From NCBI GenBank assembly GCA_028534125.1, contig CM052816.1, positions 35,466,001-35,530,000 on the forward strand: a stretch of DNA of 64,000 nucleotides. The letters are read 5' to 3'. The translations under genes and the position numbers were made by a program. The stretch's first letter is position 1. The number at the start of each line of letters is the position of its first letter. The notes under the pieces are model-generated. The model ran no database searches. It was not told the origin of the DNA and saw nothing but the letters and a program-made list of their open reading frames with translations. The DNA is from Lama glama. Lineage: Eukaryota. Shown piece by piece: positions 11,163-61,417 of this stretch.

Positions 11163-11707
11163 TGTCACTGGCAAAGCACATTAACAAGTCCCAGGAAATA
11201 AAAATAGAATCTGGGTAGCAAAATAAAGTCTAAACATTTTTTTCCTTTGTACTTAGTCTAGTTTCAGTTGCACACAGGGTGCCACGTGCAGAGACCTTGC
11301 ACCCAGCACTTCAGACCAGAGTTCCTAGTGCAAAATGGATGAGCCCAACACTTCAGAAGCACTGCACATGACACTGCAATTCAAGAAGGGCACAGTGTAC
11401 CATCTGTGCACACCACAATGTACAGAAATGTGGCATCTGGCACTTCGATCTGGAGTGCCATGAGCAGCACAGCTGTGCCCTACCCGCAAGAACTCTGCCC
11501 CCTCCCTGCTGACAAGAACCCTATAAAGCAGCCCCACCCATGGCCTTTCAGGGAGAGTCTGTATTCTAGAGTTTGAGATTCTACCACTCCATTCTCTGAT
11601 CAAAAAATACAGCTTTCCTTTGCTACTGAACCAAACTCCATCTCATTCTATTGACTCAGTAGGCAGAAGGACCCTTGTTGGAGACTAACTTGGGAGAGTA
11701 GGTAACA
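11163..11707 (+). repeat. 5' LTR of the provirus
   Basis: TG start, ends ggtaaca; TATAAA at 11522-11527; polyA signal decayed (aataca); 3 CpG counted. Confidence 0.9.
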
Positions 11708-11714
11708 AAATTTC

Positions 11715-11732
11715 TGGCAATTCAGATGGGAC
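11715..11732 (+). promoter_or_regulatory. Primer-binding site, tRNA-Arg type
   Basis: tggcaattcagatgggac matches 15/18 to TGGCGACCCAGATGGGAC, the complement of the tRNA-Arg(CCG) 3' end as recalled; lies 7 nt after the LTR end. Confidence 0.75.
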
Positions 11733-12059
11733 AGACTGTGGCCTTTTTGCCTGCACCAATCTAATAGGCTCTGGGCTTGCCCCGGCTGCAGTGGGAGGAT
11801 GGTGGAGGCTTTGGGAGGTTTGCATCAAATGATTGCCTCTGACCTTTAGTTCACTCTGATGGAATAGAACAGTGGCGCCTTCCACCGAACTCAGAGCACC
11901 TCTGTTGAGCAACACAATTCCCGAGTGTGGTGCACACACAGCATGATCCCCAGAGTAATCTGGACTCCACATCCTTGAGGGGGCCATACTGTAGCATAGT
12001 TGGGGGTCCAATACTGAAACTCACACATGTCTGCCTGCTGCCTCTGGCTGGACTTCCCC

Positions 12060-13738: not shown

Positions 13739-16700
13739 TGGGGCCAGGGGGCTCCTAAGCTGACACTCCAAATGACCCCCATTGAGCCCCAGTTGACATT
13801 AGATATTGGGGAAAGCCTATCAAATTCTTAGTCGACACTGGTGTTACTTACTCGGTTCTGAACATCAGACCAGGTAAATCCAGTCACAAGAGTTGTACAA
13901 GTATGATGGTATCAGGGAAGGCCCTAGAATGGGCATTCATAGAGCCATTAGAATGTAAACTGGATGAACATATGCTCACCCACTTCTTCCTGTATGTCCC
14001 TGAATGCGCTATACTCCTGCTAGGAAGAGATATCTTACATAAATTGGAGGCTACTATCCCCTAATGGGAGACAAGCTGGAGGTTGGTGCCCCCTTAGATA
14101 AAGGCACAAGATGATAATGTTAATGGCTGAGGACAAACCACCCCATATGAGCAAGTTGACCTCCTCAGTGTAAATCTCAAGGTGTGGACCCAGAGACATG
14201 TAGGATGAGCTGTAGGAGCCAGTCCTATGATAGTCCATCTAAAACCCGGACATATATGACCCAATTAAAAAATAGTACCCTCTCTGTTGGGAGGCCTTGT
14301 TGGGCATTGCCCCTGTTAGACAGAGCCTAATTGACCAAGGCCTTATTAAGCCATGCCAGTCAGCATGTACTATCCCCATGCTCCCTGTAAAGAAACCCAG
14401 TGGGGAATACTGGATGGTACAGGACCTCAGGGCAGTCAATGAAGCCACAGAGGATATATATTCAGTAGTCCCTAATCCTGACACCCTGCTATCCACTCTA
14501 CTGTCTACCAGGTCCTGGTATTCTGTATTAGATTTTTAAAATACCTTCTTCTGTATTCCATTAGCCCCAGAGTCACAAGAAATTTTTGCTTTTGAGTGGC
14601 AGGATCCAAATATGCAACCAAAAGAACAATACTTCTGGACAGTCCTGCCCCAAGGGTTCAAAGAGTTCCCCATCATCTTTGGAAAAAACTTTAATAGCTA
14701 AAGACTTAAAAGATCTTCCAGTATGTAGATGATATTTTAGTCACCAGCTACGGAAGCCTCTAACAAAAATACTGTAACCACCCTGAACTACCTAGTTGAT
14801 AAAGGATATAAGGTGTCCAAGAAAGAGGCTCAAATACCACAGACTAGGCTGGACTACTTAGGCTCATTCTCACAGAAGGTCAGAGAAGCCTACCCCAGGA
14901 AAGAAAGAAGCCATTTGCAGCCTCACCCCTCCTAAAACTAGAAGACAGCTTGGGGGTTTCCCTGGGGGGGGGGAATAGCTGGGTTTTGCCTGATCATGGT
15001 CTAATAGGGAGGCCTCTATGCGAAAAGTTGAAAGGATGCTGATCCTTTGGAATGGAATCAGAATGTGAAGGGGCTTTTCAAGAATTGAAAAAGCAGTTAC
15101 TTTAGGCCCTGCCCTGGCCCTCCCAGGTTTAGCTAAACTCTTTGACCTTTACATTTATGAAAGAAGGGGAATTGTCCTCGGGGTATTAGCTCTAAACTGG
15201 ACACTTTCACTCAGATGGTTGCTTATTTCTCTAAACAATCAAACCACTGAGGGACAGCCTCCTGGCTTCAGGGCAGTAGCAGCTACTACAGCCCTGCTCA
15301 AGGAGGCTGAGAAGTTAACGTTTGGTCAGCCAGTCGCTGTGTGAACACCACACCAGGTTCAGGCTTTAAAAGTTCTAAGGAAACAAAATGGCTGTTCCCT
15401 GAAACGTCTATTCAAGTTCAGGCTATGTAACCATAAAACCTGTCACACACTAAATCCTGCCACCTTGCGACCCAGGGAAATGCGGCCCCTGGAGCGTGAC
15501 TGTATAGAAACCATAGACACGATCTATTCTATTCACCCCAACCTAGGAAGAGAGCTTCTCCCAGATGCTGAAGAGGAATAGTTCACAGAACAGAGCAGTT
15601 TTATGAGAGAAAGAAAAAGGCTGGTGGGAGACACAGTGACCTCCCAGACCCAAGAAATAGAGGCAAGAAGCCTACCCCCAGGGACTTCTGCCCCAAAATT
15701 GGAGCTGATAGCCCTCACCTGAGCCTTAGAGCTCAGTCCAGGGAAGATCTTAAGTGTTTACACAGATTCCTGATATGCGTATGCCATCCTACGTGCACAT
15801 ACACACAGGGGTTATTTGGAAGGAAAGAGGTAAGCTTACTGTGGAGAATAAACAAGTGAAACATGGCTTAAGCATACTGAAGAGCTTAGAAGCAGTGCAG
15901 CTTCTGAAAAAGGTGGCAGTGATTCATTGTAGAGGTCACCAAAAGGAGGATGCAGAGGTAATAAAAGAGACAAGGTGGACACAACTGCCAACAGGGCAGC
16001 CCTAGAACAACTAACCTGGCAACTACCCCTCATGCCTCAAAGGCCAGACCCATCCAATTACTCCCCAGCTGACACAAAGGAAGAATTAGACAAAGCCTGA
16101 AAATGGGGCTTCAGTAGAGAGCTAGGAGGCCACGAGTGGCTAATAAACATGGGTAATATGTTTTTCCCCAAGCTGCAGCGTGTCAAGTTTGATGAGAGGG
16201 AAGCTCATGAAGGAACTCACTATAGGAGGAAAGTCTTATATAATCAGTTATTTGACATCATGATAACTCCTGGCATAAAAAGTGTAATCAGTCAAATAGT
16301 TGACACACACCCCATCTGCACAATGAACAACCCTAACACCAGACTCCTCCAGAGGCCCCCAGATAAGGCCCATCCAGACCAGAGGGACCTATCCTGGGAA
16401 GACTGATAGACTGATTTAACTGTCATATTGAGAGTTCTGAGCAATTTCAGGTATCTCTTGGTGTTAACAGACACATTTTCTGGGTGGATAGAAGCATTCT
16501 CTGCTAGAACTGAAATAGCTGCTGAAGTGGCTAAGGCAGTACTAATAGAAATAATCTCCAGATTCATGCTCCCAGGGGTTCCCTACAAAACGATAATGGT
16601 CCAACATTTGTGTCTCAAGTGATAAAGGGAATAACCAGTGCCTTGGGCATAAAATGGACCTTGCACTTAGCCTGGAGACCCTACTGGGCAGTACAGAAAC

Positions 16701-17270
16701 CGAATCAGACCTTGAAACAGGTCCTAGCTAAGCTGTGTCAGGAGACTTGAAAATTGGATTAAGTTGCTTCCAAATGCCCTGCTCTACACACAGTTAGCCT
16801 CAAGGGATAAGTTAAAATTAATTGAGTTTGAACTCCAGTATGGTAGACTATTCCCCACGACCGAGAGAAGGGACACCATAGCCACCTTGAAGTGACACAA
16901 CTCAAATATGCCCTCCAGGTAGGAGAAACCATGAAAAACCCTCATGAATATAGTAACCAGGTGCTGCCTGCACCCAACAACCAGGCCCTCCATCCCTTGT
17001 GGCCAGGACACTGTGTATATCTAAAAATCTGGAAAACCAGCAGCCTGTGAGACCAACTCTCTCCTAAGTGGAACAGACCCTAAGTGGAACAGTGCCCCTA
17101 ATCCCCCATTCTGCCCTGAAGTTGCTGTAGGGGTCACTCTGTGGGTACATCACACTAGAGTGAAGATGGCCCCCGAGCCCCAAACTCTGGAGAGACAGGC
17201 TGGGGCAATGGACCCCCTTGACTACTCATGTGAACCTCTCTCTGACCTGAAGCTGCTCTTCCAGAAAACG
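13739..17270 (+). pseudogene. pol: ERV pro-pol remnant (protease, RT, RNase H, integrase)
   Basis: FLVDTGVTYSVL (DTG at 13834-13842), LLGRDIL; LPVKKPSGEYWMVQDLRAVN, WTVLPQGFK, QYVDD (YVDD at 14722-14733); ELIALT, VAVIHCRGHQK; AHEGTHY, YLLVLTDTFSGWIEAF, WVHHTRVK, YSCEPLSDLKLLF. Confidence 0.95.
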
Positions 17271-17389
17271 ACAAATGTGTGACCAGGGATATTCAGCCCA
17301 CGGCAGTGAGCCTTGACATCAGGGCACACTTTGGTCTACAGCAAAAGACCTAGATACCTTCATTTTTAGAAAAAACTTGACATGTGACC

Positions 17390-17490
17390 ATTAGTCACTT
17401 GCTAATATTCGCACATGTATCTTAAATTGTCTGGTGTCCTTTGTCTCTGAAAGGTTAGACAAATGGTGTCGTGCAGGGGTGTGAACCGTC
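17390..17490 (+). pseudogene. env: env TM / cytoplasmic-tail remnant
   Basis: LLIF/TCILNCLVSFVSERLDK resembles the gamma-type TM end LLFGPCILNRLVQFV...RL; only ~370 bp lie between the IN end and the 3' LTR. Confidence 0.65.
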
Positions 17491-18135
17491 AGGGCCAAGA
17501 CGCAGTGAGAAGCAAGCGGACCTAAAGGCAGCTGAGGAGAAGCACTGCTCCTCCACCCGGGGTCATGGGGACACCCACATCAGCAGGAAATAGTTACGTA
17601 AGACGTACATTTGCCCCTCAGCGCCCATCAGATAGAGAAGGGATTTGTCACTATTAACAATTCCCAGGAAATAAAAATAGAATCTCGGTAATAAATTAAA
17701 CTCTGACCTTTGTTGTCTTCTTTGGGCTTCGCCCAGTTTTACTCGCTCACGGGGTGCCACCTGCAGGGGCTTTGCACCTGGTGCTTCACAGCAGAGTTCC
17801 TTCTGAGAAAAGGCTTCAGTGACACCTCAGCCACGCGGGCTGCGTGCAGAAGCGCTGCCCTCACAGTGCAGTTCAAGATGGCGGCGGCAGGCCGTGTGCA
17901 GAGACGCTGCGGGGGCACTGCGGTCCGTTCAGAGCCCCAGCAGCGCAGCTGCGCATGCTCAGGAGAACGGCCCGGCCCACAGCCTGTGGGACGGCGTGTG
18001 CGCTAGAGCTACGCTCTCACCGCTCCGTTCTTTGATCAAAGAATAAAGCTTTCCTTCACTCCTGATTGAGTTCAGTCTTGTTCTATCGGCTTGAATGATA
18101 CCTGGCAGGAGGACCCTTGTAGGGGACCCACCCGG
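17460..18135. promoter_or_regulatory. CpG-island-like putative promoter within the 3' end of the ERV
   Basis: Only CpG-dense stretch in the window; YY1 CAAGATGGCGGC at 17874-17885; NRF1-like TGCGCATGCTCA at 17950-17961; bZIP palindrome TTACGTAA at 17594-17601. Confidence 0.65.
17631..17645 (+). promoter_or_regulatory. Polypurine tract
   Basis: gatagagaagggatt immediately before the 3' LTR TG. Confidence 0.75.
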
Positions 18136-31220: not shown

Positions 31221-31720
31221 NNNNNNNNNNNNNNNNNNNNNNNNNNNNNNNNNNNNNNNNNNNNNNNNNNNNNNNNNNNNNNNNNNNNNNNNNNNNNNNN
31301 NNNNNNNNNNNNNNNNNNNNNNNNNNNNNNNNNNNNNNNNNNNNNNNNNNNNNNNNNNNNNNNNNNNNNNNNNNNNNNNNNNNNNNNNNNNNNNNNNNNN
31401 NNNNNNNNNNNNNNNNNNNNNNNNNNNNNNNNNNNNNNNNNNNNNNNNNNNNNNNNNNNNNNNNNNNNNNNNNNNNNNNNNNNNNNNNNNNNNNNNNNNN
31501 NNNNNNNNNNNNNNNNNNNNNNNNNNNNNNNNNNNNNNNNNNNNNNNNNNNNNNNNNNNNNNNNNNNNNNNNNNNNNNNNNNNNNNNNNNNNNNNNNNNN
31601 NNNNNNNNNNNNNNNNNNNNNNNNNNNNNNNNNNNNNNNNNNNNNNNNNNNNNNNNNNNNNNNNNNNNNNNNNNNNNNNNNNNNNNNNNNNNNNNNNNNN
31701 NNNNNNNNNNNNNNNNNNNN
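31221..31720. other. Assembly gap (500 N)
   Basis: Run of N. Confidence 1.
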
Positions 31721-37079: not shown

Positions 37080-38620
37080 ATTTCAAAATACAGATTTGGG
37101 TTTCTGGTTCAATAGCAAATTTAGAACAGGTACATATCTTCCCTCTTTCCCTAGACTCCAGAAACATGACAGGAAAGGAATAAACCCGTATTACATCAAT
37201 GGAGGAAAGATTCTGAGAAATTTCTGTGAGATAAAATAGAAGGAGAGTTTGTTTGCAGACTAAACAAAGACAGGACAACTCCAAGTATGCTGTGGAAGTG
37301 AGAGGAGAAGGCTGATTTTTCTGGCAAGCGCTCAGGGAAAGCAGGGACTATGGGAAGGTAGGGGTGCAAAGGGGAACCAAAAGAGAGGGGTTGATGGACT
37401 GCTTATCTCGTGAACAGCTCCGCTGGGCAGCCTCCTCCCCTACCTCTCTACCTCTCTGTCCAGGTCCCTAATGTTATTCACAAGCAAAAATCAGGGGATT
37501 CTTCTCTTAAGCATGTAGTGAACTGCCTGAGGAGGGTGAGTTATTCGGGTAGGTTTCTGCATTTTGACATTTGGAGTGATCTCTGCCTCATGCCCCCAAT
37601 TTGCAGAGTTCCTGATTAGCCATCCTGTTTATGCTAAAGAACAGATGAGAAAAACAGCACACGGGCACTCCAGGCCAGCTACTTGGAGTAATCAAAGCAG
37701 TTAATCAACCAAGATCATAGACATATAAAAAAAAACAATCAGCATGGAGGAGATAGAAAAAGATAACTTACGGATAAAGCAAAAATCCTATAAATATGGA
37801 ACCATCTAAAGCTTTCTTGGGCAAAACAGAATGGACCTAAGACAATGCATAGCAAAAGGGGAATAGGTCTTTGTAACATGATTTTTCAAAAAAAGCAAAT
37901 GTTTTCTCCCTCAAGAAGAAAAAGTAAGAACCTTTAGGAGAAAAAAGTAGAAAAGTCATGGTCCAAATAAGCAAACTAAATTATGGCTGGATTTGATGCA
38001 AAACGTGAAAAGAGAATTCATGTAGGAATATTCATTATAGAAACTTCAGTCTTTGAGTGGCTCAGGGGTCATGACATTGGACTCAGCACACTCTCTTCCT
38101 CTTCAATGGACCATATTTACATAATGATAGTAATGGAAATATTCTCATCCAACGTGGCAGGAGTTAAGAAAAACTCTTTGAATAAACAAACACTTTAAAA
38201 GAGAAATAGCCAAGAGTTAGAATTTAAATAAACAAATCCTTAAATATTCAAAAGTAACCAATAGAAGAACTAAAATAATAGCTACTCCAAAAAATTAGAA
38301 GTGGGAAATGAGGTAAGGAAAAGAAGTGATCTAAGTCCTCATCTTTCACAGCCTAACTGATCAACCGAAAAAGAGCATTATGAACATACTTACTGCCATG
38401 GAGATAATCACCAGAAAAAATTAAAAACAATATTTTAGTTGGCTGCTTCTGTGGGGAAAAAAATGGGCTATATACCTTCATTATAAACCTTCATATAAAT
38501 TCGTTATAAACTTTCATATAAATTCATTATAAACCTTCATAAAAATTTTCATTATACACCTTCATATAAATTTTTGGGATGTCTTTGTTGCTATCTACAT
38601 ATATTGCTAGGATAAAAAAT
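37080..38620 (+). mobile_element. Highly decayed L1ME/HAL1-like fragments
   Basis: gtttctggttcaatagc 5'-like start, A-rich body, L1ME-like 3' end gttggctgcttctg...ttcattataaacc. Confidence 0.4.
38478..38571. repeat. Tandem repeat, ~23-bp unit x4 (tcattataaaccttcatataaat)
   Basis: Four near-identical units read directly. Confidence 0.85.
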
Positions 38621-45298: not shown

Positions 45299-47479
45299 CT
45301 CCGTGCCATGAGATGATGTACTTGGAATGACAAGATAGGAAAAACCTACAAAAAGCAGCCATGTCACTGGTGGCTAGAGCCAGACTGAAGGCAACTAAGA
45401 AGCTGCTCTTTGTCACTCTTGTCCCTGAAAATATAGATGGTTGTCGCCTGTCCTATATCAGAAAGGATTTTAAAGAAATATCTCTTGATAGAGTTTGTGG
45501 GGTTGAACCTTCATCCTTATAACTTGGGAGAGAATATTACATCTTAGATTTCCTAAATCAATTTTACCTCTATTCATATTAAAAATACAATTCAGTTATG
45601 ACAATTATCTCCAAATATTAGGGTCTGGGTCTCCTGTTATTTCAGGGAGAAAAATGGTAACCAAGTTAACAGGTGATCCCTGCATGGACAACATGTGTTT
45701 GGATATATAATTACTTCTTCAAACACTGTTTGAACAAAATATACATTTTTAATTCAAAATGCTTAATGACAAGGTGAAAAAAGAAAATTTTATGCAGTTT
45801 AAGCTATTTAAAATTTTTCCGCATCCCAAAATATAGAAGCTAAAACTTTTCTTCAAATCCAAGCCATCACAAGAATTCTTGAAAAACACAGATCAGGAGA
45901 TTCATTTCTTTCTGAAGGAGGTTTGCACAGTCTGTGATCACAAGCGGTTTAAAGAATTTAGGGTTGTTGGTTCCTAATTGTCTGAGAATCTAAATTAAGT
46001 CCTGATCATAAGATTAAAAGGTATCATCACTTTAACACTAAAACCAGGATTTTTAGTGTTAAAATTCTGCTGATATCTTTTGGTTAACTGAAAAAATAAT
46101 TCACCCAGTTGTCTTTTAAAGTATTGCCACCATTCTCTTGACTTTTCCTATGGCAGTACAATTTATGGAATCAGAGGAAGGTCATTTTCTCTGCTTTGGT
46201 CATTTTTTTTTTTAGGACTGGATAGCAATAATATAAATGAGTCTACTTTAATATGCAAAAAAGTGCCAAGAATTTTAAAACAAGCTTTATAAGGGACTCT
46301 TCTCTGCTCTTCCCTCTACCTTGAAAAGAAGTAGAATATGCAAGATAACCAAAGACATTCTGGATTTAAAACCCCTGTGGTAACTATTGATCAGCAAAAC
46401 TCCAACAGGGAATCAATGGCTAAATTCATGTGATTATTATGGTCCACAACTCTGATATTAAATTATTTCCATTTACCACTGCCCAATCAATATTCTTGGT
46501 TGTGGGGAAACAGCTGAACCACCTTGTCAACTTTAGAGACTCAACTTGTGACCGAAATCATGGTATAGCCAGTACTTCTACCATTAACAGCAGAAAACAA
46601 GAAAGTTCCCTTGTAATCAATATTAGCAAAGGGCATGTGTATCTCTGTTCTTCAGATGACTGTGTCGGTTTAATCGAATTTTAGTTCAAAGATCCATTTG
46701 TCTCTGGTTCTGCATCAGAGACGAAAATTACTTTATTTGATTAACTATGCAGACTGGGAAGAAGTCTTCCATGTATCTTAATATTCAATTCTCATGCATT
46801 CATTAGGAAGAAACAATTCCACAACCTCAAGTAAATCGTTTTAAATTGGAATGGTCAAAACAAAAATGTTAATATCCAAATATAATTTAGTGTGTTACAT
46901 AAGCATGTGCAATCATCTAAAATTAAAACTAATCACTCTGCATCAGAAGCAGTAATAAAAGTCAAAGTTCTGCCTCATTGTTCTCCAGTGAAGCATGAAT
47001 AATTCATGATTCAGGTAAACTTTCCATCTCCCTTGAGTCTTCCACAAGATTTTACCAATTTCATTATTCAAACTGTGTCTCTTTAGACACTTCAGCTACA
47101 CTAGAATTGAAATAATACTAGGTATCATACGTTCTGATGTTACTATTTGTAGATCTGTCCTTTAGCCCTCATGCAAAGCAGAGTATGACCAGGTCTGGTG
47201 GGACAAAGCAAGAGTCCTGGGCCTGGCTTTACTTCAAGGCTTCCCACCCTCCCTGAATCTGGCCTGGTTTCTCCCCAGTTCTCCAATATTCTGCTTGAAT
47301 TCAAATCTTTTCTCATCCAGAAGTATCTGGTCCCATCTATCTTTCCCAGAAAGCTGCCTGTAGTGGAAAATTAAAACCATCTCTTTTAGAGCTGAAAACT
47401 CTTCTCCTAATAGCACTTTTTACTTCACAATAAATGCTGCCATCCATAGTGTCACTAGTTTCATCTATCACATATATAC

Positions 47480-47780
47480 ATTCAGTTATTAACATTAAAT
47501 ATTTATTAAGCTTCTACTGTGGGTGATGTGCTAAAGACAGAAGGAAGACTCAAATTCTGCCTTCAAGAAGGTGACAGATGTAACAGGCTGAATGTTAAAA
47601 TACCAGTGTAAGAGGTGCCATTTCACATGGACTGGAGATGTGAAGTAAGTTTCCTAGAGAAGAAGCATTTTCACTTGTTCTTAGAAGATGAGTAGGAATA
47701 TTCAGGTTATGTAGAGAAGGGAGAATGAGAAAAGAAGCCAAGGAGAGGGGAATGAACATCTACAAAGATGGAGAGTTGTG
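47480..47780 (-). mobile_element. L2 3' fragment
   Basis: aaatatttattaagcttctactgtg...ctgccttcaagaag...ttagaagatgagtagga. Confidence 0.65.
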
Positions 47781-48065
47781 AACAAAAAAAACACAGGTTT
47801 TAGGACAGAGGTTCCAAACTCCAGCAGTCAGTATGGATCAGCAAAGCAAGCTGGGTGGAGGCAGTGGGATTCGGCGGGTACTGAGCTGCCTGGACAATGC
47901 AGGGCACTTCAAAATCACCAGCCTATAGCAGCCACGTGGAGTGCAGGTCCAGAGAGGTCTCAGAAGAAGCCAGAAATCTGGATTTTCATGTAATATCTTG
48001 AAATTTTTCATTGTTAGCAAATAACTTTTTAAAAATTATTACTCTGTAGGCAAAATCAAACAAGT

Positions 48066-48590
48066 TGTTGACTGAAATAAAATGCACAACTTAAAATTTG
48101 AGAGTTATGTTTTATTCAGTGGATGTCCTGAGGACTCAAGCCTGGGGCAGAACATCTCAGATTGCTGTAAGAGGCTGTTCCAAAGTGGCAAGGTAGAAGC
48201 CAGGATATATGAGTTTTTGCAACAAAGACCAGGTATTCAGAACATCAAAAGATTACTGTTAATTGAAGAAAACCAATATCTCAAGTTAAGGAAAGCAGCA
48301 GTTTTCTATGTATGGAAAAGTGCAAAGGTCTGGGTTCACAGGAATCATTTATTTGATAAGCACCTAACTATCTAGGGCCGGTATCCTGTTCTTCCACATC
48401 CAGGGTTCCCTCAGGGTGCACAGTCGGGGATGGCTGCAGAGGCCAGGCTGCCTGTAGAGGCCATGCTGCCTGCTGGTCTTCATCCTGAGTTCCCTCTGGC
48501 CCACTGCCAGGGGTGGCAGTAGTGGCTGATGACTTGATGGTCACAGCATTCTTTGTTTACTGATATAGATGGCAATATTTTTTATTCACA
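48066..48590 (-). mobile_element. MER41-like (cetartiodactyl) ERV1 solo LTR
   Basis: tgttgactgaaataaaatgcacaacttaaaatttgagagttatgttttatt...aacatcaaaagattactgttaatt...ttattcaca; flanks aagt / atgt. Confidence 0.75.
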
Positions 48591-48598
48591 ATGTCTTC

Positions 48599-49084
48599 TG
48601 CAGTAGGCTGAATAATGGCTCCCAAAACTATTCATAAGCCAATGCCTGAATCTGTGAATATGTTACCTTACATGACAAACGGGACTTGCAGATGTGGTTA
48701 AGTGAAAAATCTTGAGATGGGGAGATTATCCTGGATTGTCTGAGTGGGTCCTAAATGTCATCCCAAGTGTCCCTACAAGAGGGAGCAGAGGGAGATTTGA
48801 CTACAGCAGAGAAGTAGGAGAGGAGAAGATAGAAATGAGGGGCGACAGTGATGTTAGGAAGGGGTTAGGAGCTAAGGAATATAGGAAGTTTCTGGACACT
48901 AGAAAAGACAAGAAAACAGATTCTTCCCTAAAGCCTCCAGAAGAAACCAGCTCTGCTAACACCTTGACTTCAGTGAAACTGGTTTTAAACTTCTGGCCTC
49001 TAGAATTGTAAAGAATAAATCTGTGAGTTTTAAGCCACCAAATTGATGGCAGTTTGTTACAGAAGCCATGGAAAGCTAATGCAT
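48599..49084 (+). mobile_element. MLT1D LTR
   Basis: tgcagtaggctgaataatggctccc...gagatggggagattatcctggatt...aacttctggcctctagaattgtaaagaataaat. Confidence 0.85.
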
Positions 49085-49199
49085 CTCATGACCTGATTCA
49101 GCTCTCTGAGTTGTCAGTTGCATGTGTGTTTGTGTGCCCAGGTGGAGAACGGCAGGACATTAGACTAGAGAGATGAGCCTGGGCTAAGCTCCTGATATT

Positions 49200-49960
49200 C
49201 TTTCTGTTACTTTATTTGAAAAATGTTTGTTTATATGTCATTCTACCCTATTAGACCGCGAATCCTTTTTTGGACAGAAACTGTATCTTATTCTCTTTGT
49301 GTCTTCATTGCCTAGCAGAGTGCTTGGTACATACTCTTTGCTCAATAGATGAATAAAAAGCAAGGTGGAAAGGGAGGCTGGAGCCAAATCACCAGGAGCT
49401 TATTGTTGCTATTTCAAAAAAAGTTGGATTTTATTTTAAGGAGATGGGGAACAAATAAAATATTTTAAGCGTAAGAGGGACTGAGCACTTTGCTTCTCAG
49501 AAACTGATATACATAAGGACAGCTTAGAAAAGTGCAACTGAAATCAGAAGATTGGTTGGAAAGCTGTTGCAGTAATAAATTAATCCTACAAACCAGGACT
49601 GAGTCATTGGCAGTGAAGATATATAGAAAATTGATCAGACCCTGGAGTTTAAATTGACTGGACTTAAATATTGATTCAATATTTAGTGAGAGAGGAAAAA
49701 GTGAAGTCCTGGATGACTCTCAAGTTTGTGGGAAAATTGTAAAAAAATAAAAGAGAGAAGTTTAGGGAAGAGGATGAGTTCAGTTTTTGACAAGTTGATA
49801 TTGTAGTACCCATGAAATACTAAAATGGAAATGTTCAGTTGATTATATTTTCTTGAGTTTAGCAGGGAAGTTTAAAGTGGCAATGGAATAGCTGAAGCCA
49901 CAGTTTTGATGACATCACACAGAGAATGTTGTTGATCAAGAAGAGAAAAGAGAGAGGAGA
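49200..49960. mobile_element. L2 fragments (plus tail, then minus piece)
   Basis: cctagcagagtgcttggtacata...ctcaatagatgaat; ttggattttattttaaggagatgggga...gatgagttcagtttt. Confidence 0.65.
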
Positions 49961-50019
49961 GGAGAGAAGCTCAAGAACTGGTGCATTTGAGAGGAGAATA
50001 CAGAAGAGAAAAAAGAAAA

Positions 50020-50769
50020 GCATAGAGATTAAACAATATGTTATTGAAAAAACAATGGATCAATGAGGAAATCAAAGCTGAAATTAAAAAATACCTTGAG
50101 ACAAATGATAATGAAAGCACAACCANNNNNNNNNNNNNNNNNNNNNNNNNNNNNNNNNNNNNNNNNNNNNNNNNNNNNNNNNNNNNNNNNNNNNNNNNNN
50201 NNNNNNNNNNNNNNNNNNNNNNNNNNNNNNNNNNNNNNNNNNNNNNNNNNNNNNNNNNNNNNNNNNNNNNNNNNNNNNNNNNNNNNNNNNNNNNNNNNNN
50301 NNNNNNNNNNNNNNNNNNNNNNNNNNNNNNNNNNNNNNNNNNNNNNNNNNNNNNNNNNNNNNNNNNNNNNNNNNNNNNNNNNNNNNNNNNNNNNNNNNNN
50401 NNNNNNNNNNNNNNNNNNNNNNNNNNNNNNNNNNNNNNNNNNNNNNNNNNNNNNNNNNNNNNNNNNNNNNNNNNNNNNNNNNNNNNNNNNNNNNNNNNNN
50501 NNNNNNNNNNNNNNNNNNNNNNNNNNNNNNNNNNNNNNNNNNNNNNNNNNNNNNNNNNNNNNNNNNNNNNNNNNNNNNNNNNNNNNNNNNNNNNNNNNNN
50601 NNNNNNNNNNNNNNNNNNNNNNNNNAAAATGTTATGATAAATCACAGAGAAAAAAATGTGACAATGAGTGTGCATATGTCCATGAATGACTGAAAAATTG
50701 TGCTGAACACTGGAATTTGACACAACATTGTAAAATGATTATAAGTCAATAAAAAATGTTAAAAAAAAA
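50020..50769 (+). mobile_element. Young L1 flanking the gap (ORF2 piece left, 3' end right)
   Basis: RLNNMLLKKQWINEEIKAEIKKYLETNDNESTT is L1 ORF2 just after the endonuclease; the right side is an L1 3'UTR ending aataaaaaatgttaaaaaaaaa. Confidence 0.85.
50126..50625. other. Assembly gap (500 N)
   Basis: Run of N. Confidence 1.
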
Positions 50770-53700
50770 GTGGGTGGGTTTCTTATGTGTATGTGTATAT
50801 ATGCATAGGATATCTCTAGAAGGATACAAAAAATGTTGATATAGTGGTTGCCCTAAAGATGAGTAAGAAGGAGGCTTACTTTTCACATTGTGTAACTTTT
50901 ATAACTCTTCTTCTCCTATGTGCATGTATTGCTTATTGAAAATTTAATTATAAAAACTTTAATAGAATAATTAATGTCAAAAGGACACTCAAAACTGTTG
51001 CAGAATAATCTTTTGCAATTAGATTCTTTTCTTGACAAGGCATACACATTTTCCATGAGAGAGCTGTCATTAATACGTGGTTACACTGAACATTAACGTT
51101 ACGATAAGCTTGCCTACTTTATGATTGTTGAACCATAATCTTCTATAGCTAAAGAATAAATGGACACTTGGACACTACCTAGAGAGTAAGAAGTGATACC
51201 ATAAATGATCTCAGCATTATACTTAGAAATAGTAATTCCCCACCAAACATCCACAGAATAACAGCATCCTAAAAGTTGCTTATAAATTTAGCAAAAAAGT
51301 TTCAGATATTTTCAGACCTTTCCTCTTTTATGACATTTTCCCTTCAAGCTTTCAAGTCTCCACTGAAAACTTATGAAGGAACACATTATTCATAAGAAAG
51401 TTGTGGGAAACAAGTGATAAAACATCAGAAATCTCTTTGTATAAAATTGTAAGAATGTCAAATGCCAGTCTTATCCTGTTATTTAATGCATTTTAAATAT
51501 AAATTGCAGTTTATACTAATTATTTGCCCTTTTGAGTAACGAAATGAAAAATTTTAGCTGTAATAAGCACGTAAAATTTTACCTAATGCCTCTGCATTGA
51601 AATAGGAGGTGGAGTCCAGGGTACAACCTCAATTTAATCCACTGGGAATCCAGACCTATAATTAGCCATCCTTAGGTATCACCACTTCCCATTCAATATG
51701 ATTGCAACTGAGAAAGCATTTATTTGGCAATAAAAAGCTTTTTATATGTTATATGTGTCAGCTTTGTGTGGTTAGTTGGATCTGTAATTAACTGTCCTTT
51801 ATAATAAGCTTTGGGGAAGGGTGTAGGAGTACAGGTAATGAAATATGGCAGGTTGATGCCTTGTGTCATTTTGTAAACTAGCTATAGCAGGAAGAGAAAA
51901 GTGCTGGGTCAACACAAATTGGAACACAGCATTATAAGATATATTTAATTTCTGAGGTTACTTAGAAACAAGTAACTATGGTTTGACATAAACTGACCCT
52001 GCATCTATAGAAATGTGAGCTCTTCACTTTGAAATATTACTCACAGTGATGAGGTTGCCACTCAGTTTTCTTCCTTCCTGGTAGAGCAGGTGGCTCATTG
52101 AGACCACTGCCTACACTAAGAAAACAACAGTGTACACATTTAGAGCAGAAATTTCATCAGCATAAAACTAACTGGGCTGAAACGAAGCTCTTTTGACCTT
52201 ACTGTCGTTAGCATCTTGTTGTAACCAAATTATCCAGATACCTCTGAATCTTTTGCTGTTTCCACGAATTATAAGTGGGAACTCTGATGGTTTGCCCAAT
52301 GAATGATACATATTGTACTTCCAGGAATGATTTTATTCATTTCATGAGAATTAATGGAAGACCATTTGAATTTGGGTCAGATCAAGAGATTTACATGGCT
52401 CATTAACAAGTGGTTAGAATAGGAATAAAATAACTTTCATCTGGAATGTACAAAAATAAATAGAGCAAATTTTCCATTAGAGTGGTTTCAGAACAGAAAA
52501 GAAACATATCAGAAAAGATTCCCTTTGACAAAGCATAAAGACAGAGGTGGGAATAACAGAATTATAAAATATATTCTATAGTTGAAAATATGAAGCATTT
52601 GTGATTAGACAGCTGTATTAGTCACGTATCTGGATTTGAAACAAGAAATTCTCCAACTGAAAAAAAAATGCCTGAAACCATCTTATGTCTACAGGTGGAC
52701 CCCATCTCTCACCTTTTGTATATGCAACTTGATCTTTAAAGCCCTACACAGATGTGTATGAGTGGTCACGGAATTGCTTTTTCCTACCAAGCTTTAAGTA
52801 GCATGACAATATTCAGACACCTTTAAACAAAGAAAGCTTATGCCAGGAGAAGCAAAGATATGTACAAAGAAAGGCAAACAACTTTGCTCTAATCACTAGC
52901 CTTCCTGTGCTGCTCTGTCATCCCTGACTGAATGTCATTTCCTTTCTACCAGACATAAGACAAGATGATGGGAAGAATATAAAAAGAGACATTAATAATA
53001 TTCTTTTCTTCTCCGAACTGAATAGAGAACATACATTTGCTCAGAGCAGATAATAACATACTTAGAGATAATAAGCATGTATTCTCCCAAATAGAGAACA
53101 ATAAGTGATGGTATTTGATCAGCTCTCAAAGGCATGGAAAAGACTATGTGGTTATAGACAATCAGAATGGGGAGTGATTCATGTGGGCCAGAATTAGGGT
53201 CATGGAAACATGAGATGACTTAGGAAATATGAAAGGGTTGAGACAGGTAGAAAAATGTACTTTAACTCAAAACAACAGTTTAAATATTGCACATGGGCAA
53301 GAGCAAGCAAGGTATTTTCAGGAAACAATGAGAGAGCCAATGACTGTCTTGGATTGCCTAGAAAAGGAAGAGGGAGTCAATTTGGAAGAACAACTGACAC
53401 AAAGTATAGAATATGGATTTGTTCCTCTTGACATTAAAAACCCTCACTGTAAGGTCATGAGCAAGATAGTGAACAAGAGAAAATAAATTAAGCATAAGTG
53501 CAGAGCTTAGCTATATAAAAGGTCCCTGAAATTTTAAATTAGTTAAAAAAGCACTTAACTTAGCCAAAGGTCACGTCCTCATCTGGACATGGTTGAGAAA
53601 ACAAGAAGTAAGCAGCAAGCAACCTTTGAATACCCAGAGGGGAAAAATCACAAACTCATACACTCAAATCACCCAATTCACCATGAGAAAATTGACTCTC

Positions 53701-55179
53701 ACTTAGAGTCTGTTCGCTCTTATTTTAGAGAACATCTAACTCCTCTCTCCATTGCAGATTAAAAGCAAGAAATTAACAGGGGTAGCTTCTAGACTTAGGC
53801 TTTCTGACAATTGTAGTATTTGATAGCTGACAGTCTGACAATAAAGAAGGAGGCAGAAAAAGTATTAAAAGCAGCCATAAATTGAGAGATGTGGTAATTA
53901 TTTACTTGAAACTCAGATCAATTACCTTAGTGAAAAAGTCTTCATTAAATTATTTTAATGCGTTATTTTCACTCCCTAACAATTTTGTTTCTATAATAGA
54001 AGCTCTTATTGTACAACACAAGCCAAAAAAGAATGGTTGAAAATGTGCCAAAAAAAAACAACCTTTCTCTGATCTTCTGACCAATTTTAGATATTACATC
54101 CTTCACTTAATTTCCCATTAGAACATGTGGTTGTACTTACCCTAGACATCTATAATATTTGCTTCAAGAGAGATGAACGAAGGCTATTGTGCAACTACAA
54201 TATCTTCCTTGTAATGCTGTAATCGTATCTTTGCAAGGGAAATAACAAATTTTCAAATAACAAAGTATAAAGGCATATGTGATCTAAGAAAATGTCTTTT
54301 TTTTTTAACTAGGCAGAGTTCTTGCCAACACAGTTCTCTTCTCATTGATTTTATAGCATACTAACTGGTCTAAGTGAACATATAAAAATGGAAATTTCTT
54401 CAAACCTGAATACATTCCTGATATAGCTGTCATACCCTGTTGCTTTTCCATATTAACCATTAACCTACAAGAAACTGAAAACATGCTAAGGTCTAGCCTA
54501 GAGTCTTGTGTTTGTACTTGGGCTGTCAGACCTTGTCCAAATGTGGCTGGAGAAAATGACGAGAATGGAGTTATGATGTGAGAATCCAGGGTTCCTTTCT
54601 GGGGCCGTAGGTTGTGATGCCTAAAATTAGAGAAGTTTGAGTACTTATACTCCAGCACTCTTCCAAGCTTGTTACCTAAATTAATCTACTTAATTTTTTA
54701 TAATAAATCCCTATTAGGCAGGACTATTATTATTCCTATTCTAAATATATGCAACTGTGGCTGAGACCGTTCGGTAACTTGACCATGATCACAATGTTTG
54801 GGAGCAAAGCCTAAACTCTGAAATATGTTCATCACATGGGAACTCTGTTTATTAATTACTATACTTTTCAGCCAAATACTAAGATTTGTTCCAAGATTAT
54901 AGAGTTGACAAGATGATACAGCACCAGCATTTCCCTAATTATTGTTCTCTGCCACTCCAGTTTTATGAAAAGAATAAAGGGCGGCAAAGCAGAATTCCAA
55001 AATGCAATACAAGGAAACTGCAACACACCTACTGATATTCTGGAACACGTCAATATTTGATTTTGTGGGCTCCTTCATATTAACTGAAGTCTTCAGTATA
55101 ACTGTTTACTTCCTTGGGAAAACAAATACAGCCACATAACTGCTCTTGAAATTTGTTCTGCGGTCATACCCATTGTGTT

Positions 55180-55720
55180 ATTTGGGATTCTTTTGGTTAA
55201 AAAGGGCAAAACCAACTCAACTAATTTAAGCTAATGTAACTTAAGCTAATATAGTATTAAAGGTTTACTACTGGCCTCAGATGAAGCTAGAGCTAGGTAC
55301 TCAAACAACGGAGTTTGTAAATTCTCCACCTTCAAGTTGGCTTACCCCCATGTTTCTCTCTTTCTCAGGCTGGCCTCACGTGGTGGCAAAATGACTATTA
55401 GAAGTCTTAGGTTTAGCAACCCCAGAAAACAATGGGAGCTTCTCTTTCCCAGTGGCTCCAGCAGAAAGCTCTAAACTAATGTTTACAGCTATGACTGGCC
55501 TTGCGTTGCAGGTCTGCCTCTGAACTAGTCTCTACGGCCAGGGCATATATTGTTCTCATCTGTCATGTGCCAACCACTGGCTGCAGAGGAAGGTTCAGCC
55601 CCAGGTGAGTTACAGGTATCAGCTGAAGCAATGAGAGAGTGTGGTTCCCAAGATGGAGAATGGTTTTAATTCAATGCAGGGAAACAGATACTGAACAGGA
55701 TAAACCACAGATGGCCGTTA
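55180..55720 (-). mobile_element. MLT1K/L-like LTR
   Basis: gggattcttttggtt...aaaaccaactcaactaatttaagc...gtggcaaaatgact...tcatgtgccaaccact. Confidence 0.6.
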
Positions 55721-57489
55721 TTTCAGCCTGGCATGCCAGAAGAGTAAGTTGCCATTTTATCATACCACTTTGAGAAGATTTGGGGTTCTCCATCAAAATG
55801 GCTTTCCTATAATGAACTATCCTGTGGGGAGTCACGGCAAGAGTGAACTGAAGAACATGAACAAGATTTCACTGAGTCCTATCGATGTAGATGTGTACAC
55901 ACAGCAACAGGAGAATACCTAGCCAACTGTGGCAATCTGGGATGGTGCGGCTATTTGGGAAAGGCGAATTTTAGCATAGAGGGCAGAGAGGCATTGCTAT
56001 CAAAGTACTTTTTCACACTAAAGTCAACAGGTTGAGTTCATACGGATGACACTTACTGTGAGAGTAACTGCAAGTCATGCACGCATCAGACTTTGTAGCT
56101 TTGCAAATATGCAGGAAAGTGATGTTGTCAGCAGTAATACCTTCAAATGACAAGAATTCTATTTGGAAATAAAATATGAAAGAGCTTCCATATTCTTCTG
56201 CACAGAAAAGTTGTTCTGATTTAACTCAAATTGTCATGCTGCATAGGTTTCTGTTCATTAGAAGTTGCAGTCACCAAACTCAGAGAGTTCTATTCTTATA
56301 AATACATTGTGTTAAGAAATTTCATTTGTATGTCAGCACTTGTAAAGTTGGAGCCCATTTTTCCATTGAAACTTATTATAAATGGTGACTGGATTCCAAG
56401 GCTATCCCATGAGTATTAATCAAATAATTTGAATGTGCTAGTATAGGGTCTAGCACACTGTAAACAGTTAATAGATATAGCTATTATCATTAATAATAGT
56501 ATGATAATATGAAGAAAATGATCAAAACAAAATGATTTTTTTATAATAACTGTTAAGAATTAAACTAATGAGCATTTAAAAAAATGACAGACAGGGAGAG
56601 TCAGTAAGTTACTATGAAAAAACAAGCTCTACTTGTTTTAATTCCTAATTTCACTTCAAAGATGAAGATATTTAATATATTTTAGCTTAAGGATAGTTTG
56701 TTGTTACTAAAAAAGACTTTAGGGAGTTAGTATTTTTCAGAATAGACTAAAATTATTATAACTTTAATTTTGGGGTTCTATGTAGTTGCACAACTGAATC
56801 AAATATTGTGAGTATAACTAGAGCCATACTGATAGGAATAATATTTAATGAATTGCATTTTATTTACCAAGAACTTTGCAGAACTTCTCTTTCCACTTGC
56901 TTACATCTGGATGCAATTCCACTTATAAACTGAGGACACAGTACATCACTATCACCAAAAAAAAAAAAACTGTAACGGAAACAGCTATAATTGAATTTAC
57001 ATCTTAATTATTTAAACTCTTTTTTTTTTTTTTTGCAGCCTGAATATTCTCCGCCTTAGAGCTATTTTGGAGACAACCTATCATCTACGATTAGCAATGC
57101 AGATATTCTTTCGACATAGGTGACAAGTTCTTTTTGGTAGCTTGCATAACTTCTCAGTAGAATTAACTTCACTTAAAATTAATTCAGCAGCTCTATTATA
57201 GATTAATTTGATGCTAATTTTGATTTTTTAAATTATATAAACACTAAAGATATCTAACTACTACAATTTACCTGACCACTTTTGTTTTAGTGACAATTTG
57301 GGGGAGGCTTTTTATAATCAAATGTCTATTTAAGAAATAATAAATATAGAGAATCATGAGTGTCAAAAAACTCAATGAACTAGTGTCTAAGACTGTCTCA
57401 TTAAGGTGTATACTGCTACAGTCTAGGTGTCTGGCACATCACATACAAAAGAGGTGGAATAGTGACATCAGATTGACTGAACTTTATTT

Positions 57490-58010
57490 TTTCACTCATT
57501 CAACAACATTTGTTGAGCACCTAATATGAGTCAGGCATGTTTCTAGGTTCTGGGAAGACAGGAGTCAACAAGACAAAGTTCCAAACCTCCATAGAACTTA
57601 TATTCTGCTTGAGAAAGACAGACAATTATTTAGTAGGAGTATTATTCTTCCAATGAAGAAAAGCAAAGCAGGTAAGGATAAGCTGAGGGAAAGAGGGATG
57701 GTGATCAGGGAAGTCCTGTCTGAAGAAAGTGACACTTAAGAAGAAACCTGAAGAAGTGAATTATACAAAAATCAGAGGCAATCAGGAAGTGCAAAGGCCC
57801 TGAGGTGAAACAAGCTCACTGTGTTTAAGGAAGAGCAAGACCATGGTGAACAAAGTGAGCAGCAAGAATGATAGATGATGAGGCCACAGAAGTGGGGAGG
57901 GCCAGACCCTGTAGAGTGTGCAGGTCAAGGTAAGGAGTTTGGGTTTACTTTAGTTAATATGGGAAGCCATTGGATGGTTAGGAATAGAAGAGTGACATGA
58001 TATGAAGTTT
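57490..58010 (-). mobile_element. L2a 3' fragment
   Basis: cactcattcaacaacatttgttgagcacctaatatgagtcaggca...gtgcaaaggccctgaggtg...atgggaagccattggatgg. Confidence 0.85.
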
Positions 58011-59497
58011 GGGGAAAAGGCTCTAAGAAAACAAGGAGACAGTTTCAGCAGTTGGAGCAAGGCAGACACTATCGCTATTATAATACCTATTCTTTACTGC
58101 CTGATTCCAAGATGAAAAATAAAAATTGTTTCTGCACAAGTGATGTGTTGGAAATAGAAAAATCAGCTATTTAGCTGGAATGCAGCTAGAATAAAATACC
58201 TGTTTCTATAATGACTGTAAAGAAACTACTTACCTGAACTGCCAATTTACAGAGGTTCTTTGTGGATGGTGAATATGAGAAAAGTGTAAGAGGCCAGAAT
58301 AATTTGAAACACATCTACCGCCTTGTCTCCCCTCCCCTCCTCCTATCAATGGTCTGACTCCTGGGGGCTGTTAGGAGAATTGCAGGACGATACCACTGGC
58401 ACTGGACACCTTCTTCCAAAGTAAAATGCTGCCATCTGGAGGCTTCCAGAGTACAAAAGTAATACAAAAAAATAGAAACCAAAAAATCTGTTTCAACTTG
58501 GAAAAAAAAATTATATATTATATATTATAAGGTAAATCTTCTGCCTCCCTTTCAAGATTATTGATCTACTCAGGTTTTGTATTCAGTTTTGATCATTTAT
58601 ATTCTTCTAGGAAAACATCAAATTCTCCCAGATTTTCAAATGCATTGTCATAGAGTTGCATATAATATTCTTCTATAAAAGTGTTAGTCTCTCATTTACT
58701 CGCAGTTATATATGATTTTAATTCTCAGTATTATATCTTTTTACTTGTTTCTCTTATTGTAGAATTTTGAGCAATAGAATACATATTTGGACTCTGTCCC
58801 AGGGAGACAACACTGATAATTACGTACAGAATGGACTAAAAGAGAGAAGATATGGGAATACTAAATGGAATACAGGAGGCAACTGTCATGTCTCGAATTA
58901 GTGATGACTAGAGTCTGAACCAGGGAGAAGGAGATTTAAAGGATTTTACAAAATAAAATCCGTAGGAATTGACTATGATCTGTGCTATACGAGAAAAGAA
59001 AAAGGTTAACATAATGCTGCAGTTTCTAGCCTAGAATGATGGAAGTGTTCTTAACCAAAGCAGAGAGAATAATGATCTCCTGTGAGGACATCTGAGTTAG
59101 AGAAGGTGGAAGGACAGCCATGTGAAAATGCCCAATCAGTGTGGAAACAGAACTGTAAGTCAAAGCTAGAGGTGGTCACTAGAGAGGTGAGAAAACATGA
59201 GATCAGCTGGAAAAAATCTACAGAGGGAGAAAGGAGTGAGTATACTAAGATATCAATAATTAATTGAGAGGTTTTTTAAATAAAGACTTATACTTTCAGG
59301 CAGCTGAACAGTCAGAGAGCATATGAGAGAAGCCAAGAGAGTAAAGAATTTAAGGAGGAGGAGGAGGTTTAGGAAACACATAGATTAAAATGATGAAAAA
59401 TTTGGCTACACAAAAAGAAAAACTTTTACTTGTCTCTTTTATTGTAGAATTTTGAGCAGGAGAATGACATATTTGGACTCTGTCCCAAGCAGACAAC

Positions 59498-60283
59498 TGT
59501 GGGAGCCCATGATTGGGTTAACAAATTGTAACAGACCCCAGCCGCTTGTCTCCTTAAAGAAGAGCAAATGTGCTTAGTAACTGCCTTGCTTGTATAGTTG
59601 AGGTTTCAGATAGCACTCTGCTCCTAGCAAAACAACAACCCAGGCCTTCGGCTATAAACGCTGGGCGTGCCTGCTGTTAGATAGTCTTCTATCCCCAAAG
59701 CAAGGAACTGGCTGGGCTGGCGGTCTGCTTTAACATATCTATAAGAATGTATCTTGCTCCCCTCTTCCCATGACTTCCCTAAAGGTAAACTGTAGGCCCC
59801 CAAAGGAACGAGTCTTGGGCTGGAATGGTAAACAAGTTATAAAAAGCTGCAGACTCAGAGGTGAGAAGGCTGGTTAGCCAACGACGGGTAAGATCCCCAG
59901 AGGGGGGCAACCTAAGACAGGCATAGCCCAAGAAAAATGTTAAGCAGCTGCTTCTCATACATTCATTCCCCCCTGATAAGCTGCAAGGCTCGCTGATGTC
60001 AACACGACCATGACTTACCAAAACATAAAGGGTCTTCTGACCTTGAGCCAGACTCTACAATCTAGATCCCACCCTGTCTTTCCCTAAATTCCTGCATTCC
60101 ATCACACAACTGTCAGTGATTTCTCCTTTGATTGTATACAATAAATGTGGGGCATTTGAGAGGTTCGTGGAGTTGGCTCCCGACTCCCTCTCGCTCTCGA
60201 CTTTTCCACAGAGTCTTGAGTAATTCATTCCGTTTTGGTGGGACTTCTGCTGGCCAGAACCCACAACTGGTGATGAACCCACA
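59498..60283 (+). mobile_element. Class II (beta-like, ERVK) solo LTR, 786 bp
   Basis: TGTGGG...CCCACA inverted termini; 6-bp TSD gacaac / gacaag; contains a CTE-like element. Confidence 0.85.
59868..59928 (+). promoter_or_regulatory. CTE-like RNA export hairpin (putative NXF1/TAP-binding element)
   Basis: GCCAACGACGGGTAAG...AACCTAAGACAGGC matches the MPMV/SRV CTE core motifs as recalled; closing stems ggctg/tagcc and tcccc/ggggg. Confidence 0.8.
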
Positions 60284-61417
60284 GACAAGACTGATAATTA
60301 TGTACAGAATGGACTAAAAGAGAGATGATATGGGAATACTAAATGGAATACAGGCTATGGAACAAGGGATACCATGAGTAAACTAATACAACAATTAGCT
60401 GAGTATATGGAGGACTGAAAATGGAATGAAGAAAAGAAGGGATGAACGGGATTCTAGTAACTATAATTTCAGAGAGGATGGTTTTCCTTTCTTGGTGTTG
60501 GCCTTAATTGCAACCCCAGTTCTTAGCCTCTTTCTGCAGGGCTAAGAAAGTTCCCTCAGGTTCTCTGGCCACATGTTCTTCTTTTCCTCTTGGCCTCTGT
60601 GGCTGCTATTTCATTGACCTCCTGCCTCAGAAAGAGGGGTTTCCTGTGCTCATTCTACCCTCAGGAAAATAGCACATTCTGATTGACTTCATCCCTGCTC
60701 ACTTTTTGATGAGAAAAAGCATTGCTGGGTTTCTTGGAAATAAATATACATTACTTATTGATCCAGCTTTCCTGGTATGTAAGCTATTGCCTATAAATTA
60801 GTTGGCCTACTTTTAGAAGTTGCATTAATTCTTTTGGGCCAGTTGAGTACCCTTTAGTGCACAAACCACGAGAGAAGGTGAATTTACAACCTTGCACATT
60901 GCAACCATTTTACTAGATCAATGCATACTAGGGAGCACTTCCTCCTTTCCTTCTTTTTATATAGTTTTCATCCGGGCTATGAATAGGGCATCCTGTCCCA
61001 AGCAAAGAAGTATTCTATCTTTGGGTTATTTAAATTCTTGATCAATAGTAGCAAAAATCTTTTAACCTTAACTGAATACTGCTGTTGTGCACAATCTTTC
61101 TGTTTTCCCTACAGAGATCTCGGTTCACATAAGCTGGTTTTATTTTTATTACATAGCAAATGCTCTGTGAGAGTTATCTTTCTTTAAACATGCAAGCAGT
61201 AATAATGAATTTGAAGTTATGAAACACATCTGATTATATTTCTAATTGCTTTCTATAGGACCTTCTCTACTGTTTATCATAATCAGTAGTTTTTCCTTGT
61301 TTCATAATGACCTACCACAACACTTGCTAATAAATGTAACTTTCCTGGCAGAGGTCACCTAAACAGTAATATTAGAACTTTAAATTATTAAGTGAATTCA
61401 CCTCTTTTTATGGTTCC

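What the first reader, a model, noticed from the sequence alone, without database searches (positions are those of the whole stretch)
45300..58496. Unannotated fossil gene: ~12 co-oriented pseudo-exons invisible to the ORF track
Seen: repeated polypyrimidine-AG ... GT(A/G) pairs on the minus strand, e.g. donors CAG|GTAAGT at 58234, AGG|GTAAGT at 54141, AAG|GTGAGA at 52713, ACA|GTAAGG at 52203, ACT|GTGAGT at 52045. Segment sizes are exon-like (62-393 bp), one intron is ~87-92 bp, and the MIR/L2/MLT repeats fall between segments. Splicing the first ones gives DGSILLWKKVSSASGIVLQFS*...SVNWQFSL*VELHPDVSKWKEKFCKVLEFLSFEGITADNITFLHICK, later ...SRISVGVLQFPCIAFWNSALPP... and IRLQHYKEDIVVAQ*PSFISLEANIIDV*. 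Inference: a unitary pseudogene of an old vertebrate gene. Caveat: stop density is high (~12 in ~370 codons when one frame is carried through six exons), so the true frames are uncertain and I cannot name the gene.
Basis: partly seen in the sequence, partly recalled or inferred. Interest (0 to 1): 0.7.

Follow-up and report, generated by a model that had tools for sequence, protein, structure and literature searches.

The report
Possible fossil gene, unproven and unnamed
A stretch of camelid DNA holds about eight exon-like pieces that may be the remains of a long-dead protein gene, but the splice signals are no denser than chance, no parent protein was found, and the signs of past coding are only faint.

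Summary
All 5 named donors are present. Eight AG…GT-bounded segments can be drawn on the minus strand at 58435-52045, with a 92-bp intron. Such pairs are no denser than elsewhere in the window. No parent protein turned up in Pfam, NCBIfam, the PDB, three word searches or the Atlas. The one deep phmmer search returned only gene-caller ORFs from matching DNA of other mammals. Those relatives give the only positive sign: inside segments G and H, substitutions favour one codon position (15-17 vs 6-8; introns 12-14 vs 10-11), and the two favoured frames join in phase. The signal is weak (one-sided p 0.02-0.14; Fisher against intron 0.16-0.38), and those two frames never reached the deep search. The segments are not better conserved than the introns, and one strong donor seems lost in the relatives. 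Best reading, about even odds: a dead multi-exon gene in a region probably matching human 5q21-22, gene not named. Rivals are chance and a spliced lncRNA. Splicing in RNA was not tested.

The parts
58234..58435 (-). Candidate pseudo-exon A (202 nt); strongest donor (12.9 bits), weak acceptor (4.0)
   Evidence: no homolog
56868..56929 (-). Candidate pseudo-exon B (62 nt); weak sites (2.8 / 4.9 bits); in phase with A and C
56057..56158 (-). Candidate pseudo-exon C (102 nt); no stop in the frame carried from A and B
   Evidence: no homolog
55029..55112 (-). Candidate pseudo-exon D (84 nt); sites 7.1 / 7.8 bits; frame unclear
54141..54228 (-). Candidate pseudo-exon E (88 nt); donor 10.4 bits
   Evidence: no PDB match
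52713..52820 (-). Candidate pseudo-exon G (108 nt; relatives carry 17 nt more). Substitutions favour the third position of the frame starting at 52818. The donor GT appears not to be kept in the relatives.
52203..52440 (-). Candidate pseudo-exon H (238 nt). Substitutions in its 3' part favour the third position of the frame starting at 52440. The Val opposite the donor codon is kept in relative P0002.
52045..52110 (-). Candidate pseudo-exon I (66 nt) after a 92-bp intron
47248..47357 (-). Weak candidate J (110 nt); looks L2-derived by eye (recalled likeness, untested)
46320..46709 (-). Weak candidate M (390 nt); stop density near background; no homolog; single-sequence model of part of it has pLDDT 44.7

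Best explanation
Segments A-I (58.4-52.0 kb, minus strand) are remains of coding exons of a multi-exon protein gene that is dead here and in the related mammals sampled: an unprocessed, probably unitary pseudogene. It makes no protein. SHOWN: the segments and their AG/GT ends, stops in every carried frame, orthologous DNA in other mammals, and a 17-nt length difference inside G. INFERRED: past coding; the frames of G and H; loss after some period of selection, because the third-position excess needs constraint on at least one branch since the split from those relatives; location near human 5q21-22. NOT KNOWN: the gene's name, family, age and 5' and 3' ends, and whether J and M belong to it.
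For: Against the relatives' ORFs, substitutions in G fall 2/7/2 to 2/9/2 on codon positions 1/2/3 (3.5/8.5/2 for two of six) and in H 4/8/2. The adjoining introns give 9-10/9-11/2 and 1/3/0. Pooled 15 vs 6 gives simulation p=0.022; binomial one-sided p is 0.017-0.076 by relative. The favoured frames of G and H join in phase once the 17 nt present in relatives are counted, and follow the phase in which E ends (arithmetic). A+B+C carry 2 stops in one frame, p=0.066 against random triples. Segments have GC 39.3% vs 35.9% and CpG 9.5 vs 4.7 per kb.
Against: No protein homolog in Pfam, NCBIfam (101), 10 PDB searches (best E 0.032, polyubiquitin), three word searches or the Atlas. The same read-through method readily finds the decayed retrovirus in this window. 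Splice pairs are at background (86). The codon bias was found after the fact, rests on two segments and back-translated residues, weakens to one-sided 0.04-0.14 (two-sided 0.08-0.29) without two forced stop-codon changes, and is not significant against the introns (Fisher 0.16-0.38). Identity in G is lower than in the intron (53-56% vs 74-75%, partly from a frameshift). Amino-acid composition is not coding-like (p 0.07-0.42, two boundaries off by one base).
Confidence: 0.48

Rival explanations
1. Chance. This is ordinary AT-rich intergenic or intronic DNA, and the 'exons' are background AG/GT pairs picked by eye between old repeats.
For: Pair density at background at all four thresholds. No homolog in any search. 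Segments no better conserved than introns. The donor at 52712 faces Ser rather than Arg in the relatives shown, which implies the GT is not kept. By eye the pieces 'matched' many mutually exclusive families.
Against: Several weak, partly independent signals lean the same way: codon-position bias with phase agreement, low stop count in A-C, higher GC and CpG.
Confidence: 0.34
2. A spliced long non-coding RNA with no coding past, for example a reproductive-tract transcript, that uses some of these donors today.
For: Three donors score 10 bits or more. It would explain real splice sites without protein homology.
Against: Three such donors in 6.5 kb is within chance (control mean 1.3; 19% of controls reach it). 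There is no CpG island in the window (CpG o/e at most 0.32 per 2 kb). No Rfam match. It would not explain a codon-position bias.
Confidence: 0.15
3. Part of a living gene whose reading frame is obscured by assembly error.
For: The window has two 500-N gaps.
Against: 14 DNA runs hold 0.91-1.00 of the sampled words of 51500-58600, 4 of them possibly the source of this assembly. Every frame has 12 or more stops over A-I. No close homolog was found.
Confidence: 0.03

Closest known systems
Unitary (unprocessed) pseudogenes and 'genes with lost coding potential' (GLCP) of mammals; Hezroni et al. 2017, PMC5577775 (passages and parts of the supplements seen)
   Same: Multi-exon anatomy with stops and frameshifts and no annotated protein. 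The paper reports that sequence similarity to the lost gene is detectable for only about a fifth of the positionally conserved pairs above background, so a blank search is expected even for true cases.
   Different: Those cases are defined by a syntenic intact gene in an outgroup, which was not shown here. Their table S4 names none of PJA2, MAN2A1, YTHDC2, FBXL17 or KCNN2, and no human lncRNA row on chr5 lies at 100-120 Mb; I saw 30 of 78 'chr5' places, so the pseudogene sheets were only partly seen.
XIST/JPX/FTX-type lncRNAs recycled from protein genes (named in PMC5577775, passage seen)
   Same: Possible route if the locus is both a fossil and transcribed.
   Different: Neither splicing nor expression was shown here.
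Type III (Hz-type), FAT-like and CELSR-like cadherins with EGF and laminin-G modules (type III in non-mammalian vertebrates: PMC3216324, passages seen)
   Same: By eye, from recalled motifs only, the order of A-H and M can be read as last cadherin repeat, membrane-adjacent domain, EGF, laminin G.
   Different: No Pfam, PDB or sequence hit. No upstream cadherin-repeat or cytoplasmic motif stood out from background. Chicken Hz-cadherin lies on chicken chromosome 2 (PMC3648530, passage seen), whereas human 5q21-22 corresponds to chicken Z (recalled). A lead, not a test.

Membership tests
Unitary unprocessed pseudogene | Collinear homology of several exons to a functional protein gene | tested here: inconclusive
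   No hit or 10 PDB searches. Exons were searched singly; the favoured frames of G and H were not in the phmmer job.
Unitary unprocessed pseudogene | Disabling stops or frameshifts | tested here: met
   At least 12 stops in 316 codons in any carried frame; 17-nt difference in G against relatives. Non-coding DNA meets this too.
Unitary unprocessed pseudogene | Exon-intron structure with splice signals beyond chance | tested here: not met
   Sites exist but pair density is at background; decay would also erase an excess.
Unitary unprocessed pseudogene | Trace of past coding constraint (codon periodicity) | tested here: inconclusive
   15-17 vs 6-8 in G+H, 12-14 vs 10-11 in introns; p 0.02-0.29 depending on treatment.
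Unitary unprocessed pseudogene | Intact ortholog at the syntenic position in an outgroup, no functional copy elsewhere in this genome | not testable with these tools
   No whole genome is held for the window and no vertebrate genome collection can be searched.
Spliced lncRNA | Junction-spanning RNA at the proposed sites | not tested
   No reads were laid on the region.
Cadherin with EGF/laminin-G modules | Cadherin repeats, laminin G or EGF domains by profile | tested here: not met
   No such Pfam family at any threshold; no PDB relative; motif scans at background.
Immunoglobulin-superfamily gene | Ig domains by profile | tested here: not met
   No Pfam Ig hit; a profile of the supposed Ig ends found nothing; the antibody hit for H is two non-collinear scraps, best-stretch E 6.5.

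The most novel reading that the evidence does not exclude
The locus is the relic of a large, unnamed vertebrate gene, possibly a cadherin-like or other extracellular multi-domain protein, in the region matching human 5q21-22. It stayed under selection into the early radiation of placental or artiodactyl lineages, died separately in camelids and their relatives, is missed by loss screens anchored on human or mouse genes, and may survive intact in some mammals or as a reproductive-tract lncRNA.
Probability: 0.12. Interest if true: 0.65.

Novelty: new member of a known kind. Interest (0 to 1): 0.27.

Why it matters
If real, it adds one gene loss that screens anchored on human or mouse genes would not see. 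The codon-position signal hints that the gene was still under selection after the split from other sampled mammals, so living copies might exist and the loss could be dated. Unitary pseudogenes are a well-known class, so without a gene name the gain is small. If it is chance, it shows that AG/GT pairs and protein-like words can be read into any repeat-poor AT-rich mammalian DNA.

Tried and rejected
Pfam on three minus frames of 41451-62000 (48 of 51 chunks; the three over the N gap left out): best E 0.023, none near a cut-off. Pfam on 42 exon-sized pieces: best E 0.028. Pfam on 18 plus-strand pieces covering part of the region: best E 0.042. NCBIfam: 0 of 8 pieces. PDB, 10 searches: only summed scraps on polyubiquitin (E 0.032) and antibody heavy chains (E 0.035); rejected. 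Word searches: 0 of 643 candidates (171-2000 aa), 0 of 32 (119-2000 aa), 0 of 32 (1485-4725 aa). Atlas: best 0.76 for C, no usable hit for part of H. Structure of part of M: pLDDT 44.7, not used for a fold search. Contig scans: nothing; L001 has no DNA similarity to the window and reads as bacterial by eye, so a chance match. No internal protein repeat by self-tblastx. Rfam: none. RNA: two RNA runs hold 0.28 and 0.23 of the sampled words of 51500-58600 and four guessed-RNA runs 0.12-0.17; none was laid, they may hold the stretch as DNA, and they are not used as evidence. By-eye likenesses from recalled motifs (Ig, SEA/membrane-adjacent, WD40, laminin G, MAM, PLAT, G8, ferlin C2, MGAT4, receptor kinases) contradict each other and none passed a test. 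Literature: searches gave 0 papers; one search gave one irrelevant paper (PMC12616123, passages); searches were seen as listings. The supplement of PMC10195156 names none of five neighbour genes (2 of 5 'chr5' rows shown); PMC5424241 gave no location (passage). These searches cannot show that the locus is not in print, since it has no name to search by.

Full report
Setting. The window is AT-rich, CpG-depleted DNA (CpG o/e 0.16; 2-kb maximum 0.32) with two 500-N gaps. No whole genome is held. Earlier AI notes on the same genome piece, which I did not check, call it camelid. They place TRIM52, SH3TC2, CD14, SLC22A4, DMXL1 and the first exon of CAMK4 at 34.6, 26.3, 20.2, 13.9, 5.9 and 1.9 Mb before the window, and SPEF2 43.8 Mb beyond it. 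With recalled human coordinates this suggests human 5q21-22, near FER/FBXL17 if collinear. That is an extrapolation; a local inversion would move it.

The observation. All 5 named donors are present. Eight AG/GT-bounded segments, A-I, lie at 58435-52045, and two looser ones (J, M) at 47357-46320. I could not draw about 12. On approximate weight matrices built from recalled frequencies, acceptors score 2.8-7.8 bits and donors 4.9-12.9. Exon-like pairs in 52000-58500 are at background at all four thresholds; 19-63% of 161 overlapping control stretches reach the observed count. So the signals are real letters but not an excess. Repeat placement could only be judged by eye.

Search for a parent protein. 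With stops read as X, I scanned Pfam with 48 minus-strand chunks, 42 exon-sized pieces and 18 plus-strand pieces, NCBIfam with 8 pieces and the PDB ten times. I also ran three word searches and two Atlas searches. Nothing significant came back. As a positive control, the same method finds Gag p30, protease, RT, RNase H and integrase in the decayed provirus at 12-17 kb. The blank has limits. Exons of 20-80 residues were searched singly. The word searches yielded only 32-643 candidates, so they need close relatives. Two of them stopped at 2000 residues. The one deep phmmer job used a single frame of 52198-52859.

What the deep search found. Two hits: P0002 (E 1.4e-8) and P0003 (E 1.7e-5, cluster of 6), all unnamed. 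They run straight through intron and segment alike, so they are gene-caller ORFs on orthologous DNA of other mammals, species unknown. They show that the DNA is old and shared, not that it coded.

What the relatives say against. Identity inside G is 53-56% (36 codons, partly lowered by a frameshift) against 74-75% in the upstream intron. There is no exon-shaped conservation peak. Opposite the codon that holds the GT at 52712, P0003 and P0007 have Ser where the window has Arg, which implies that donor is not kept (inferred by back-translation). The Val opposite the donor of H is kept in P0002.

What the relatives say for. Assigning each residue difference to a codon position, G gives 2/7/2 to 2/9/2 (3.5/8.5/2 in two of six relatives), and the 3' part of H gives 4/8/2. 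The introns give 9-10/9-11/2 and 1/3/0. The excess position is the third codon position of the frames starting at 52818 and 52440. These frames join in phase if the 17 nt that relatives carry in G are counted, and they follow the phase in which E ends. Pooled 15 vs 6 gives p=0.022 by simulation. By binomial test, p is 0.017-0.076 one-sided depending on the relative, and 0.039-0.143 without the two changes forced by stop codons; against the introns Fisher p is 0.16-0.38. The test was made after the fact, on two segments, and one frameshifted stretch in H and a gapped one in the intron were left out. These two frames were seen by Pfam and the PDB but not by the deep search.

Other faint signs. 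A+B+C carry only 2 stops in one spliced frame; 6.6% of random triples do as well. The segments have GC 39.3% vs 35.9% and CpG 9.5 vs 4.7 per kb. Amino-acid composition is not distinguishable from controls (p 0.07-0.42). The best frame through all eight segments has 12 stops in 316 codons.

How it most likely works. It makes no protein. I put about even odds (0.48) on A-I being decayed coding exons of one minus-strand gene, broken by stops and indels here and in the sampled relatives. Chance (0.34) and a spliced lncRNA without coding past (0.15) are the rivals. RNA runs that hold part of the stretch exist, but no reads were laid, so expression and splicing remain open.

Comparison with what is known. 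The class is familiar. Hezroni et al. (PMC5577775; passages and parts of supplements seen) traced several hundred human and mouse lncRNAs and pseudogenes to lost genes by synteny, and found detectable sequence similarity in only about a fifth of the pairs above background. Their table S4 showed no entry for this neighbourhood in the rows I saw (30 of 78 'chr5' places). Membership needs a syntenic intact gene, which these tools cannot test. By eye the pieces recall a cadherin-EGF-laminin-G layout, as in the type III cadherins of non-mammalian vertebrates (PMC3216324). No profile supports this, chicken Hz-cadherin lies on chicken chromosome 2 (PMC3648530), and other families fit equally well by eye. 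I therefore name no gene.

Verdict. Observation partly confirmed; interpretation neither shown nor refuted. At best a new, unnamed member of a known class. Interest 0.27. A whole-genome alignment would settle it quickly.

Noticed in passing
window about 11200-18130 (+): Decayed endogenous retrovirus with Pfam hits to Gag p30, protease, RT, RNase H and integrase, many stops and frameshifts. LTR-like ends near 11.2-11.7 and 17.65-18.1 kb by eye; an insert near 12.9-13.15 kb resembles the repeat end at 50668-50767 (74%).
   Followed up: partly
window 58739-58876, 59424-59497, 60283-60354: A local duplication (91-96% identity) whose second copy is split by an LTR-like element at about 59.5-60.3 kb. 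By eye the element faces the plus strand and holds a minus-strand donor at 60018 (8.6 bits), just upstream of segment A.
   Followed up: no
window 31221-31720 and 50126-50625: Two assembly gaps of exactly 500 N, each beside L1-like ends by eye; the second lies inside the finding.
   Followed up: no
window 38469-38572: AT-rich minisatellite, period 12/23, up to 8.5 copies.
   Followed up: no
P0002-P0008 versus window 53135-52143: The protein collections hold gene-caller ORFs made from non-coding mammalian DNA; they can pose as homologs but also serve as proxies for orthologous sequence.
   Followed up: yes
window 52255-52279 and 52345-52400: Relative P0002 differs from the window inside segment H by an apparent one-base loss and gain close together, and by a net 10 extra residues further upstream, so the frame is kept across both.
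   Followed up: partly
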